From Glaucostegus cemiculus (Eukaryota): a DNA stretch of 64,000 nt. Shown piece by piece: positions 1,108-55,910 of the stretch. Made by a program: the position numbers and the translations under genes. Position 1 is the first letter of the stretch. Each line of letters starts with the position of its first letter. The notes beneath the pieces were generated by a model, which was given only the letters and a program-made list of their open reading frames with translations, searched no databases and was not told where the DNA came from. The DNA lies in the NCBI GenBank assembly GCA_976551045.1, contig CDPCPM010000285.1, positions 1,364,001 to 1,428,000 of the forward strand, in the 5' to 3' direction.

Positions 1108-2130
1108 ACCTTTTTATAAGGTATATTAGAAGCAAGAGCATAGCTAAGGAAAGGGTAGGTCTCGGGGTTTAGAGTAGGGTTATGACCAGGTCTGGAATGA
1201 ATACTTCTCATCAGTATTCACCAGGGAGAAGGATGTGGCGGCTGGAGATTTATGGAAGGGGCACATTGGTATTCTGGAGCATGTCTGACATCAGGAAGGA
1301 GTAAGTTTTGGGTATGTTGGTACATGTTAGGGTGGATAAATCTCCAGGACCTGAGAGGATCTATCCCAGGATACTAAGGGAAGCAAGAGATGAATTTGCT
1401 GGGGCTCTGACACAGATTTTTTGCAGCTTCATTAGTGAGGTGCTAGAAGACTGTAGGATAGCTAATGTTGTCCCCTTGTTCAAAAAGAGCAATAGTAATA
1501 AGTCTGGAAATTACAGGCCAGTGAGCCTCACATTGGTGGTTGGAAGTTGTTGGAAAGATCCTGAGGGACAGGAGTTATGTTCATTTGGAAAAGCAGGGAC
1601 TGATCAAGAGGAGCCAGCCAAGTGATGTGGGTAATAGATTCACCTGCATGCTGCCTGGAACGGAGGGCTGCAGCTATAAGGAGAGATTGGATGGGCTGCA
1701 GTTTATAAGGAGAGATTGGATGGGCTGCAGTTTATAAGGAGAGATTGGATGGGCTGCAGTTTATAAGGAGAGATTGGATGGGCTGCAGTTTATAAGGAGA
1801 GATTGGATGGGCTGGGTTTATTCTCACTGAAATGTAGAAGACTGAGGAGTGATCTTATTGAGGTTTATAAAATTGAGGGGCATAGATAGTCTTTTTCCCA
1901 GGGCAGGAAGGAGATCTGAGCAGTGTATTTTTCACACAAAGGATGCTGATTATCTGGAGTGATCTGCCAGAGGAAATGGCGCGGGTGGATACTGTTTAAA
2001 AGGCATTTAGAGAGGAGAGGTGTAGAGGAATACAGGCCTAATGCCGGCAGATGGGATTAGCATAGATAGTCATCGCAGTCGGTATGGATGAGTGGGCTGA
2101 AAGAGCTTGTTTTTCTGCTGTATTATTCTG
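1108..2130 (+). mobile_element. Degenerate, internally deleted CR1 LINE
   Basis: ORF 1308-1625 contains DKSPGP..IYPRILRE..ANVVPLFKK..GNYRPVSLT; CR1-type 3' tail near 2090-2130. Confidence 0.85.
1665..1814 (+). repeat. 29-bp tandem repeat, about 5 copies (GGGCTGCAGTTTATAAGGAGAGATTGGAT), inside the CR1
   Basis: Four perfect 29-bp units at 1693-1808 plus a 28-bp variant at 1665; the array begins and ends with GGGCTG. Confidence 0.95.
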
Positions 2131-8781: not shown

Positions 8782-9460
8782 TCAGAATCAGAATCAGTTT
8801 ATTGTCACTTTCATGTACACATACCTAGCATACATGAAGGCGAGATATCGTACTCCACAGGCCAATGTGCAAAGACATTACAGACAGTAAAAGACAACAG
8901 GACAAAAACATCAAAACATTGGTACATCAACCAGCCCCAGCCTCACCCCGCACCAATGACCACCTCCAGCCTTGCAGTCCTACAACCTCCGCGCCCACAG
9001 TCCGAACCGATGACCACCTCCGGCCCTGCAGTCCGACTACCTCCGGCCCCACAGGCCGATCCGATGCCCACCGGCCCCGCAGTCCGAACCGATGACCACC
9101 TCCGGCCCCGCAGTCCAGGCCCCGCAGTCTGACGGCCTCCGGCCCCGCAGTCCAGGCACCGCAGCCCGACGACCTCCGGCCCCGCAGCCCGACGACCTCC
9201 GGCCCGGGCAGCCCCCTTCCCGCCCGCAGCCCGAGGCCACCATGAGGCTCCAGGGCCCTCGACACGTTGGGCTCCGACAAGCTGTCGGTGCCGTCAGCAC
9301 AAACAACGAATCCATAGAACGAACATCAAGCACGCAGACATCAAGAACAAAGAACACAAGAAAAAAAAACAGCACAAGACACTAAAAGACTAACAAAAAA
9401 CATAAAGCACTACTGACCCGGGAGAGGCCGCTGCAACCATGTGCGCCGCCATCTTGGGTC
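8782..9460 (-). mobile_element. Non-autonomous retroelement with a YY1-motif head, GC-rich VNTR body and Rex-Babar-type 3' tail
   Basis: Minus strand starts CAAGATGGCGGCG and ends CTGTGGAGTACGATATCTCGCC...GTGACAATAAACTGATTCTGATTCTGA, matching the Rex-Babar tail at 63342-63415; no RT coding sequence. Confidence 0.75.
8930..9245. repeat. GC-rich degenerate VNTR (about 18-28 bp units built on ACCTCCGGCCCCGCAGTCC)
   Basis: Repeated CCTCCGGCCC and CGCAGTCC motifs; CpG-rich against an AT-rich background. Confidence 0.85.
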
Positions 9461-53576: not shown

Positions 53577-53674
53577 TTTCTGCTAAGTTCAGCTCTCAGG
53601 GCTCCAGAGCCTTCTGATGGTGCGCCCACACTAAGATGCGCTGCAAACCTTTGCACCACAGGATGAAAATGTCT
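53577..53674 (-). CDS. NOC3L: NOC3L coding exon: [32 protein letters not shown]
   Basis: Matches human [25 protein letters not shown]; cag/gtaagg sites. Confidence 0.96.
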
Positions 53675-54906
53675 CTGCAATTAAATAAGAAGTGCAGGGA
53701 AAACAGGGTGTTATGATGAGTCTTGATTCATGTTACAAGAAAAATGTTAAGACTAAGATTGTTTACTGATATTTTTTCCATTTTTGTACACCCAATCCAG
53801 TATTAATCCAAATCATGACATACTTAAATCAAAAGTTCTATCCATAAACTCTCAGATTATCACCATTCAAGCTTAAAGAATTTAACTGATGTGGAATTAA
53901 ACATGAATCATAAAATTATGTGATCAAGGTTGCTTAATTACGTTGTACTGTCAGTTGAGTTGACGGCCAGAACACTGTTACACGATTACCCAACAGCCTG
54001 CAGCCCCCACATTCACACCTGTCCCAGAGACTCCACAATGGCAGTCAGGGGCTGCATGGACAGGAGGCCCTATTGGTTGCCTCTTTTCCTTCCACACAAA
54101 TGGCAATCTTCTAACACTCCAAGCTTGTTACTTAAGATGCGACCCCTTAAAGAATTTGAAAACCCTCTATAATGCAAACGTACAGGAAACCTTATAATGA
54201 GCTATAACTGCTAACGGTCAGCTTCAGCCATTGCATAGAGTGTGCTGGTTGGAAGCGCTAAGAGAATTCCATGCCATTACACTTTAATTCTTTCATTGAT
54301 CCAGTGACCCTGAGATGTTTAGCTTGTTTTTCATCTTGAAGTTATCACCCAAATTTTGCAGTAACAGTGATGAATTCCATTTGCTGTACTGCAGAGGTCC
54401 AGCTGTACTTCCAGCAAAGAGTGAAACATTGTAGGCATGCACAGGGTGGCATACGTGCTTGCTATGTAAGTAGAGAATAGGCTAGAAACTATGGTTGGAG
54501 CTAGACAGGCACTGGAAAATTGCAAGTTTGAGAAGATTTAAAGGAAGTGGAATTAGATTAAAACCAATTTCTCTCTCTTCTCATATTCCCAAGCTTAAAC
54601 AATTACATGAGGATCTGGGTTGGTTTGCACTGGCCCTGTAGTGGGGCACGGTGGTATTGCTGTTGGTGGGAAGGAGGAGTTCTCCTTTTCTACTGCACAG
54701 TCTGGAGAAATACCTTTTACACGATTCATCTATGGAGGATTCAAGGGGAAATTTTACAGACTGTTTCTAAATGCCCCCACAGTGCCTTGTGGACCTATGT
54801 TTGTTCATGCATCCCCACGAAACAACATTGTGGACCACTGGTAAAGAAATACTTCACTTAGGTAAAAGCTGCATTTCAATGTACTTAAGTGCCTGATTAA
54901 AAATGC

Positions 54907-54992
54907 AAAACAAGCATACCTGGAGATAAAACAAGCATACCTGGAGATAAAACAAGCATACCTGGAGATAAAACAAGCATACCTGGAGATAA
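54907..54992 (-). repeat. NOC3L: Perfect 21-bp tandem repeat, 4 copies, spanning a NOC3L exon-intron junction
   Basis: Sense-strand unit TTATCTCCAG|GTATGCTTGTT; on the + strand AAAACAAGCATACCTGGAGAT starts at 54907, 54928, 54949 and 54970. Confidence 0.97.
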
Positions 54993-55111
54993 TGCAGCTC
55001 CCACAAGGCAGTGTTCTGTGCATTGCAGTATTCAGGTTCATCAAGCTCTGGCAGATAAAGTCCACTACCTTGAGATTCACTATCGAGCAAAATATCTGTC
55101 TTCGGAAATGA
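54983..55111 (-). CDS. NOC3L: NOC3L coding exon: [43 protein letters not shown]
   Basis: Near-identical to human [40 protein letters not shown]; alternative identical donors would end the exon at 54962, 54941 or 54920. Confidence 0.96.
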
Positions 55112-55868
55112 CTAGAAGATGATAAATTTTAAATAAGACAAGGTGTAACTTAATTCCTGCAAGGAAATAGCTACATTTAGTAATTAATATGCAATTTCAT
55201 TTCTGAATAAGTTCTCTGTTCCAGTATTATTCAGTTGATTCTTTGTGCACTTTTATTTAAGAAACTTGCTGTTCCAGCAAAGTGCAATATTTTTTACAGG
55301 TAAATGCCAGCACTGACTTTATCTGACATGGGCAAAGGCAACAGCACTAATAGGAAAACCTTCTATTATTCAAATTGTGTAATTCATGTAACTTATGAAT
55401 ATGCAAAACAAAACTTCCTGAAAGATTAGGCCTACAAAGAAAATACAGGTAACACACTCATTACTGGACAATACAAATAAGGTACAAATAACTGCAGCCA
55501 AATTAAGGATTCTACACTACCCTGAACAAGAAAAATAACATAACTATCCAGCAGTTTTAAAGAATGGGAAGAACCAGAGATCTCAGAGTTTAAAGGAGAA
55601 AATAAATACTGACCCAAAGAGGAAAATATTAGGGGTGGGGCAGTGGGTGGTTGACCAAAACCATGCTTGAAGGTTTAAGAAAGATCTTTAAAGAGCAAAT
55701 CAAGGAGATTTGGGTAAATCATCTCCAAAGTCTGTGGATATGCACCTGAAGGTATAGCTGCCCTGGTTGGATGAAAGCAGCACTGGGAGCATATTAAAAG
55801 ATGAAGCTCAGTGAGGTCAGGTTGATGGATCAGTGGTACTTAACTGAAAGCAGTATTTGGATCAATTG

Positions 55869-55910
55869 AAGCTTGTCAAGAGTGAAGGAAAGCTTGTCAA
55901 GAGTGAAGGA
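55869..55910. repeat. Perfect 21-bp tandem duplication (AAGCTTGTCAAGAGTGAAGGA, 2 copies), intronic
   Basis: Read directly from the sequence. Confidence 0.9.

What the first reader, a model, noticed from the sequence alone, without database searches (positions are those of the whole stretch)
54907..54992. NOC3L splice donor quadruplicated in frame by a perfect 21-bp tandem repeat
Seen: the unit TTATCTCCAG|GTATGCTTGTT is repeated four times with no mismatch across the exon end. This gives four identical CAG|GTATGC donors (exon end at 54983, 54962, 54941 or 54920). Each step adds 21 nt with no stop codon (VCLFYLQ), so using the downstream donors would insert 7, 14 or 21 hydrophobic residues between the conserved segments ALWELHYLQ and RHFHP. 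Read from the first donor, each unit is GT...pyrimidine tract...CAG followed at once by GT, so it resembles a tiny intron or a recursive AG|GT site; three units form a 63-nt GT-AG stretch. Known: tandem duplication of AGGT-containing sequence is a proposed route to intron gain, and NOC3L is a conserved ribosome-biogenesis factor. Inference: this could be a copy-number-variable splice switch or an early step of intron gain.
Basis: partly seen in the sequence, partly recalled or inferred. Interest (0 to 1): 0.72.

Follow-up and report, generated by a model that had tools for sequence, protein, structure and literature searches.

The report
Repeated splice donor in ray NOC3L
In the NOC3L ribosome-assembly gene of a cartilaginous fish (likely a ray), a 21-base stretch covering one exon end and its splice signal stands four times in a row where three related species have it once; such repeats are known from human and lancelet genes, and the cell likely keeps using the first signal, leaving the protein unchanged.

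Summary
In detail: a perfect 21-bp x4.1 repeat (54907-54992) spans a NOC3L exon/intron boundary, giving four identical in-frame donors. Two runs of one sample hold the 51-base contig that needs at least three units; organisms B, C and D have one unit. It belongs to a known class, minisatellites whose first unit spans a splice donor (human F7, CBS, IFI6, LMNB2, PDGF; amphioxus 'mirages'), where the first donor dominates (PMC1557585, PMC3087553). This scan noted three such arrays elsewhere in this genome (unchecked here). Perfect arrays of three or more copies occur at about 4 per Mb here. The junction takes no insertion above 4 residues in 130 distant homologues, so heavy use of the spare donors would likely harm an essential protein. 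Intron gain is not supported: no new exon results. Open: donor use is untested on RNA; experiments with duplicated donors favour the downstream site beyond 45 nt (PMC3413131; here D1-D4 is 63 nt); and the donors are predicted to pair with each other (12 bp), more tightly at even copy numbers.

The parts
54907..54992 (-). Perfect tandem repeat, period 21, 4.1 copies; 2-nt (TT) overlap at its edges; first unit = last 10 exon bases + first 11 intron bases
54983..55111 (-). NOC3L coding exon (129 nt, 43 aa, phase 0/0), part of the CBF/Mak21 domain; ends at donor D1
   Evidence: (PF03914, E 2.1e-05)
54974..54985 (-). Donor D1 (ancestral, exon end 54983); 12-nt quasi-palindrome predicted to pair with the same 12-mer of another unit
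54953..54964 (-). Spare donor D2 (+21 nt, +7 aa if used)
54932..54943 (-). Spare donor D3 (+42 nt, +14 aa if used)
54911..54922 (-). Spare donor D4 (+63 nt, +21 aa if used; the insert has mean hydropathy 1.76)
54907..54969 (-). The 63 bases gained in this lineage (placement ambiguous over 23 bases); absent from organisms B, C (two samples) and D
   Evidence: joints 54906>54970, skip 63; 54906>54971, skip 64
53675..54982 (-). Intron from D1 (1308 nt; 1245 nt from D4)
53577..53674 (-). Next NOC3L exon, starting RHFHP

Best explanation
A 21-base segment across an existing NOC3L splice donor was copied head to tail in this lineage, likely by chance slippage or break repair, and the spliceosome likely keeps using the first donor, so the three extra copies would be removed as part of the intron and the protein would stay unchanged. 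Shown: the repeat, its presence in reads, the single-unit state of three related species, the fixed length of the protein junction. Inferred: one duplication at a 2-base overlap followed by expansion; choice of D1 because it lies next to the exon, is only of middling strength (so two sites are seldom occupied at once) and has its neighbours 21 nt away, inside the range where no downstream bias is reported; minor leakage to D2 or D3 (as in CBS and IFI6) is allowed and would give a 7- or 14-residue insert, likely degraded. Being a multiple of three is a one-in-three chance and needs no function.
For: Single unit in organisms B, C (two samples, two studies) and D, flanks 92.5-94.2% alike. Natural arrays of this kind use only the first donor (F7, LMNB2, PDGF) or the first plus the next two (CBS, IFI6); in F7 minigenes spare sites up to consensus value 91 did not compete and 1-12 units did not change the choice (PMC1557585); amphioxus mirages did not disturb splicing (PMC3087553). 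Donor strength ranks 5th of 11 NOC3L donors by U1 pairing, -7.2 kcal/mol against -11.6 for the consensus (U1 end recalled). Junction spacing is ancestral in 110 of 110 measurable vertebrate hits, gap-free in 119 of 130 covering distant representatives with the largest insertion 4 residues, gap-free against human, fission-yeast-size and budding-yeast-size chains of solved structures; the inserted peptide is in 0 of 293 fetched proteins. The junction lies in a 5-residue linker between helices 690-694 and 700-710, pLDDT 90-95. NOC3L knockout is embryonic lethal in mice (PMC12450466). Function-blind origin: 3 perfect arrays of 3 or more copies in 790 kb, a second lineage-specific 21-bp duplication inside the upstream intron and a perfect 29-bp x4.8 array inside a decayed LINE-like element of this window.
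Against: [quoted passage not shown] Early tandem-duplication studies also found the proximal copy used, with one opposite result (as cited in PMC1557585). This donor has 7 Watson-Crick pairs to U1 against 5 for F7, so the F7 rule may not carry over. All four donors are predicted to be paired in the four-unit RNA, opening energy 8.5-9.7 against 6.8 kcal/mol for one unit. All splicing precedents are mammalian or lancelet; conservation of the junction shows selection on the protein, not which donor is used in this animal.
Confidence: 0.66

Rival explanations
1. Downstream rule wins: U1 binds D1 and D3/D4 at once and the intron-proximal site is chosen, so much of the mRNA encodes NOC3L with 14 or 21 extra hydrophobic residues; the animal either tolerates this or the allele is a rare, mildly harmful variant.
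For: About 100% proximal use at 45 nt or more for identical donors (PMC3413131); D4 is followed by a U-rich stretch; every step is in frame with no stop, so no nonsense decay would hide it; 7 residues is two helical turns (inference).
Against: No insertion above 4 residues at this spot in 130 distant homologues or 70 aligned ones (64 with 12 residues, 6 with 13); the 21-residue insert is more hydrophobic (19-residue window 1.93) than any stretch of a ray NOC3L (1.51); essential gene; repeat depth fits both chromosomes carrying several units better than a 4/1 heterozygote (2.2-2.3 against 1.33; weak, depth about 3); natural arrays favour the first donor.
Confidence: 0.12
2. Self-masking donors: the 12-mer around each donor is a quasi-palindrome, so copies pair with each other (D1:D2 and D3:D4, or D1:D4 with D2:D3). 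This would slow U1 binding and raise in-frame skipping of the 43-codon exon, more at even than at odd copy numbers.
For: Predicted 12-bp hairpin of -12.3 kcal/mol against -7.2 for the U1 duplex; opening energy of D1 is 6.8, 8.2, 6.2, 8.6, 6.2, 8.6 kcal/mol for 1 to 6 units; region z-score -3.47, 0 of 200 shuffles fold as well; 4.5-5.9% of 3000 shuffled-unit arrays fold as well.
Against: The gain over the single-unit state is only about 1.8 kcal/mol; 4 of the 12 pairs are G-U; 4 of 10 other NOC3L donors fold as well or better when duplicated the same way, so the hairpin is a common by-product; the shuffle z-score is inflated because shuffling destroys the repeat; prediction only, no probing; skipping would remove conserved CBF-domain residues.
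Confidence: 0.12
3. Recursive or micro-intron splicing on the way to intron gain: D1 splices to the AG at the end of unit 3, which rebuilds a donor, or a middle unit becomes a micro-exon.
For: Each unit runs GT...pyrimidines...CAG followed by GT, with a yTnAy-like word at positions 14, 35 and 56; 37-65-nt human introns exist (PMC4463651 abstract); mirage repeats were proposed as a route to new introns (PMC3087553).
Against: No exon is left after the 63-nt cut, so no intron is gained and the mRNA is the same as from D1; 63 nt is below the 65-nt threshold and not G-rich; candidate branch points sit 35 nt from the donor or 7 nt from the AG, too close by textbook spacing (recalled); a micro-exon would need a 21-nt intron; the Hellsten route needs an exonic AGGT.
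Confidence: 0.03
4. Assembly or sequencing artefact: the genome has one or two units.
For: Both supporting runs come from one sample that may be the assembly's source; depth is about 3; no contig spans the array.
Against: Two separate runs each hold the error-free 51-base cycle, which two units cannot give (14 of 21 words only); neither shows the single-unit joint that the relatives show.
Confidence: 0.03

Closest known systems
Human F7 intron 7 37-bp VNTR (Borensztajn et al. 2006, PMC1557585; read parts 1-5 of 6)
   Same: First unit spans the exon/intron boundary, so the true donor is followed by identical spare donors competing for one acceptor.
   Different: Unit 21 bp rather than 37; 4 units rather than 5-9; every step in frame; donor pairs better with U1 (7 against 5 Watson-Crick pairs); polymorphism and donor use are measured for F7 and unknown here.
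CBS intron 13 VNTR, IFI6 (6-16) intron 2, LMNB2 and PDGF minisatellites (seen only as cited in PMC1557585)
   Same: Donor-spanning arrays; CBS and IFI6 use the next two spare donors as well, LMNB2 and PDGF only the true one.
   Different: Those arrays have 10-25 units; this one has four perfect units and looks like an early stage.
Amphioxus 'mirage' minisatellites (Adh3, globins BflGb6 and BflGb9; Ebner et al. 2010, PMC3087553; passages read)
   Same: Tandem copies of an exon/intron boundary, units 10-160 bp, no disturbance of normal splicing reported, intron gain proposed as a model only.
   Different: Here in a jawed vertebrate, with the single-unit ancestral state shown in three relatives; length instability not tested.
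Intron gain by tandem duplication of an exonic AGGT (Rogers model; ATP2A1, Hellsten et al. 2011, PMC3265369; part 1 of 4 read)
   Same: Tandem duplication of an AG|GT word puts a GT upstream of an AG.
   Different: There the AGGT is inside an exon, the unit exceeds about 60 nt and exon lies on both sides; here the AG|GT is an existing donor, the unit is 21 nt and no new exon results.

Membership tests
Donor-spanning minisatellite / 'mirage' | Head-to-tail repeat whose first unit spans a real exon/intron boundary | tested here: met
   the exon is the orthologue of a conserved NOC3L exon.
Donor-spanning minisatellite / 'mirage' | The splice donor is reiterated unchanged in the following intron | tested here: met
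   Four identical -3..+8 contexts.
Donor-spanning minisatellite / 'mirage' | Arose by expansion from a single boundary | tested here: met
   Single unit in organisms B, C, D.
Donor-spanning minisatellite / 'mirage' | Copy number varies among individuals or haplotypes (VNTR in the strict sense) | tested here: inconclusive
   Only one sample of the near-identical organism; depth fits 3-4 units.
Donor-spanning minisatellite / 'mirage' | First donor dominates in mRNA | not testable with these tools
   Needs RNA reads of this species.
Intron gain by tandem duplication (Rogers/Hellsten) | Duplicated AGGT lies inside an exon in the ancestor | tested here: not met
   The AG|GT is an existing donor in the relatives; the intron follows it there too.
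Intron gain by tandem duplication (Rogers/Hellsten) | GT and AG more than about 60 nt apart with exon on both sides of the new intron | tested here: not met
   Longest GT-AG span is 63 nt and is followed at once by intron.
Recursive splice site (AG|GT) | Acceptor immediately followed by a donor | tested here: met
   CAG|GT at each unit end, as any copied donor ending in AG gives.
Recursive splice site (AG|GT) | Lies deep in a very long intron, with a usable branch point and conservation (features recalled) | tested here: not met
   Intron is 1308 nt, sites are 21-63 nt from the donor, absent from three relatives.
Recursive splice site (AG|GT) | Junction reads or lariats at the site | not testable with these tools
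   Needs nascent RNA.

The most novel reading that the evidence does not exclude
A parity-controlled splice rheostat: because the 12 bases around this donor are self-complementary, copies pair off with one another, so alleles with an even number of units hide every donor and alleles with an odd number leave one free. Copy number would then set how much NOC3L mRNA includes the exon or carries a 7-, 14- or 21-residue insert, tuning an essential ribosome-assembly factor, and the locus would be a natural test of the upstream-scanning rule against the proximal-site rule at 21, 42 and 63 nt.
Probability: 0.07. Interest if true: 0.62.

Novelty: new member of a known kind. Interest (0 to 1): 0.25.

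Why it matters
As most likely read, it matters little: one more donor-spanning minisatellite, here caught at four perfect units with the single-unit ancestor visible in three relatives. Its value is as a clean test case. Two published rules predict opposite outcomes (first donor in F7-type arrays; proximal donor at 45 nt or more), the four donors are identical, and all products are in frame, so nonsense decay cannot bias a count of junction reads. If the proximal rule or the hairpin parity effect held, it would show that a short repeat can change or tune an essential protein whose local length has been fixed since yeast.

Tried and rejected
No contig of X1 or X11 spans the array, so holes there prove nothing. 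Genome-wide pattern of three CAGGTAWG words 18-33 nt apart: 156 matches against 219 for the reversed control, no excess; 100 of 156 matches were listed, forming 18 arrays including this one; for the 17 others, 23 open frames of 20 or more residues ending at the first donor (from 15 arrays; 2 had none) gave no Pfam hit except a weak reverse-transcriptase match, E 0.012. This is a weak test for short or untranslated exons, and arrays with units over 33 nt could not match. Hairpin-driven expansion in DNA rejected: both strands fold at only -0.8 and -1.4 kcal/mol. A bias of this genome toward 21-bp duplications rejected: none of 12 perfect arrays in 790 kb has period 21. Dating by unit identity is weak: 0 mismatches in 65 position pairs allows up to 4.5% divergence, and the chance of no change in 86 nt at 3% is 0.07. 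Three papers on donor spacing asked for by id were not held; the spacing data come second-hand from PMC3413131. Searches for a hairpin between repeated donors (1 paper, a drug review by its listing), for clinical donor duplications (2 papers, listings only), for donor-bearing VNTRs (2 papers, listings only) and for recursive-site spacing (0 papers) found no closer case; a NOC3L search (12 of 26 listed) showed nothing on this repeat. No isoform with the insert was folded. No supplementary files were read; those of PMC3087553 hold the mirage alignments.

Full report
OBSERVATION. The repeat is as described. Tandem Repeats Finder gives period 21, 4.1 copies, 100% matches at 54907-54992; the unit occurs four times with no mismatch, against 0 in 100 shuffles. 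The exon 55111-54983 on the minus strand is 129 nt, phase 0 at both ends, and matches the CBF/Mak21 domain. Reading on gives VCLFYLQ three times with no stop. Donors fall after 54983, 54962, 54941 and 54920; the acceptor lies before 53674. A DNA search of the own genome (2.85 Gb) gave this one locus. The exons are closest to stingray and devil-ray NOC3L among the ten cartilaginous-fish proteins compared, so the animal is likely a ray (inference).

IS IT REAL? Eleven runs were listed; seven were laid (X1 and X10 twice; X2, X3, X5, X11 once... six distinct runs in eight layings). X1 and X11 come from one sample whose contigs are 99% or more alike to the window; it may be the assembly's own source. 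Each holds an error-free 51-base contig on the repeat. At word size 31 a 21-base period closes a cycle of 21 words, 51 bases long, and two units supply only 14 of the 21 words, so at least three units are in the reads (the word size is stated by the run-search tool, the cycle argument is my inference). The depth ratio, 1.6-1.75 raw and 2.2-2.3 corrected, lies between three units (1.67) and four (2.67) and above a 4/1 heterozygote (1.33); at depth about 3 this is weak.

ANCESTRAL STATE. Contigs of organism B (X2), organism C (X3, X5; two samples, two studies) and organism D (X10) cross the site and skip 63, 63, 63 and 64 bases, with 200 or more bases on the shorter side. Flanks are 92.5-94.2% alike. 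One unit is therefore ancestral and the three extra units were gained in this lineage. The duplicated piece has a 2-base overlap at its edges. Unit identity dates it only loosely.

BACKGROUND. In 79 own-genome stretches of 10 kb (20 beside the window, 59 spread over other contigs, not drawn at random), 12 perfect non-simple arrays of period 12-60 were found, 3 with three or more copies and 2 with 3.9 or more. With a recalled figure of 200,000 donors per vertebrate genome, chance alone would put some 15-24 donors inside the first unit of such an array; the estimate rests on 2-3 events. The same window shows two function-blind cases: a 21-bp duplication at 55869-55910 inside the upstream intron, bridged without error by an X1 contig and 21 bases shorter in organism C, and a perfect 29-bp x4.8 array in a decayed LINE-like element (the LINE label is my reading of the sequence). 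Earlier notes of this scan report donor-spanning arrays in SPRING1, HIP1R and LZTS2 of this genome; I did not check them, and their units (about 36-47 bp) are too long for my pattern search.

THE PROTEIN JUNCTION. Of 120 homologues returned (the best 120 of 527), 110 junctions could be measured and all 110 keep the ancestral spacing; 9 matches lacked the downstream motif (read-through, skipped or doubled exon) and 2 proteins were not matched. Of 150 representatives at 50% clustering, 130 cover the junction: 119 have no gap and 11 have one, the largest insertion being 4 residues; 13 did not cover it and 7 gave no hit. In a 70-row alignment, 64 rows have 12 residues from W689 to P700 and 6 have 13. 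The three best solved-structure chains shown align without a gap here. An AlphaFold2 model of the Hypanus protein (mean pLDDT 78.8) puts Q695|R696 in the linker between helices 690-694 and 700-710, local pLDDT 90-95. The 21-residue insert has mean hydropathy 1.76, above any 19-residue window of the Hypanus protein (1.51), and is in none of 293 fetched proteins. NOC3L knockout is embryonic lethal in mice (PMC12450466, passages).

WHICH DONOR? Not shown; two bodies of work disagree. For D1: human F7 intron 7 carries a 37-bp VNTR whose first unit spans the boundary; only the first donor is used, spare sites work when it is mutated, do not compete up to consensus value 91, and unit number from 1 to 12 does not change the choice. 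The same paper lists LMNB2 and PDGF (first donor only) and CBS and IFI6 (first plus next two) (PMC1557585, parts 1-5 of 6). Amphioxus 'mirages' do not disturb splicing (PMC3087553, passages). For D3/D4: with two identical globin donors, proximal use rises beyond about 30 nt and reaches about 100% at 45 nt, tied to both sites being bound by U1 (PMC3413131, passages). Here neighbours are 21 nt apart but D1-D4 is 63 nt. The donor is of middle strength, 5th of 11 NOC3L donors by predicted U1 pairing, with 7 Watson-Crick pairs against 5 for F7, 6 for globin and 9 for the consensus (U1 end recalled). I favour D1 because natural arrays match this geometry better than two-site constructs and because the protein constraint is strong, but the contrary rule keeps my confidence at about two in three.

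The 12 bases from -3 to +9 of the donor are self-complementary with four G-U pairs, so two units form a 12-bp hairpin with a 9-base loop, -12.3 kcal/mol, and four units hide all four donors. Opening D1 costs 6.8, 8.2, 6.2, 8.6, 6.2 and 8.6 kcal/mol for one to six units: an odd/even effect of about 2 kcal/mol. Against weight: the single-unit donor is already predicted paired, 4 of 10 other NOC3L donors fold as well when duplicated alike, and 4.5-5.9% of shuffled-unit arrays do. It is a prediction and likely a by-product. As DNA the array does not fold, so a hairpin did not drive the expansion.

INTRON GAIN AND RECURSIVE SPLICING. The Hellsten experiment duplicates an AGGT inside an exon, over more than about 60 nt, leaving exon on both sides (PMC3265369, part 1 of 4). 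Here the AG|GT was already a donor; removing 21, 42 or 63 nt leaves no exon. The 63-nt span is under the 65-nt threshold of human introns and U-rich, while 12 of 15 validated ultra-short introns are G-rich (PMC4463651, abstract). Candidate branch words lie at 14, 35 and 56, too near the donor or the AG by recalled spacing rules. The mirage model of intron gain needs a unit to become an exon, which here needs a 21-nt intron.

VERDICT. Real, lineage-specific, and a new member of a known kind; likely near-silent (0.66). Rivals: proximal donors dominate (0.12), hairpin-driven skipping with a parity effect (0.12), recursive or intron-gain step (0.03), artefact (0.03). Interest 0.25. One RNA data set would settle it.

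Noticed in passing
window 55869-55910: A second perfect 21-bp tandem duplication (2.0 copies, unrelated sequence) inside the upstream NOC3L intron; bridged without error by an X1 contig, and organism C is 21 bases shorter across this stretch. No splice signal involved.
   Followed up: partly
window 1675-1814: Perfect 29-bp x4.8 array inside what reads as a decayed CR1-type LINE.
   Followed up: partly
window 8948-9214: GC-rich degenerate tandem repeats (periods 14-54) inside what looks like a mobile-element end.
   Followed up: no
window 55781-55790: Organism C (X5) has about 130 more bases here than the window, so a deletion in this lineage or an insertion in C (record 22).
   Followed up: no
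G000 C16, C62, C63, C73, C190, C202, C228, C248, C254, C286, C289, C317 (L043-L070, L111-L118): Minisatellites whose units carry a CAGGTAWG donor-like word; none tied to a recognisable exon by Pfam, one lies in a LINE.
   Followed up: partly
P0002 (Microtus ochrogaster NOC3L model, 817 aa): The orthologue of this same 43-codon exon appears more than once in tandem in the predicted protein: an exon duplication or a model error.
   Followed up: no
P0030 (Pelobates cultripes, 1380 aa): NOC3L model fused to a protein with PF00566; likely a gene-model fusion with a neighbour.
   Followed up: no
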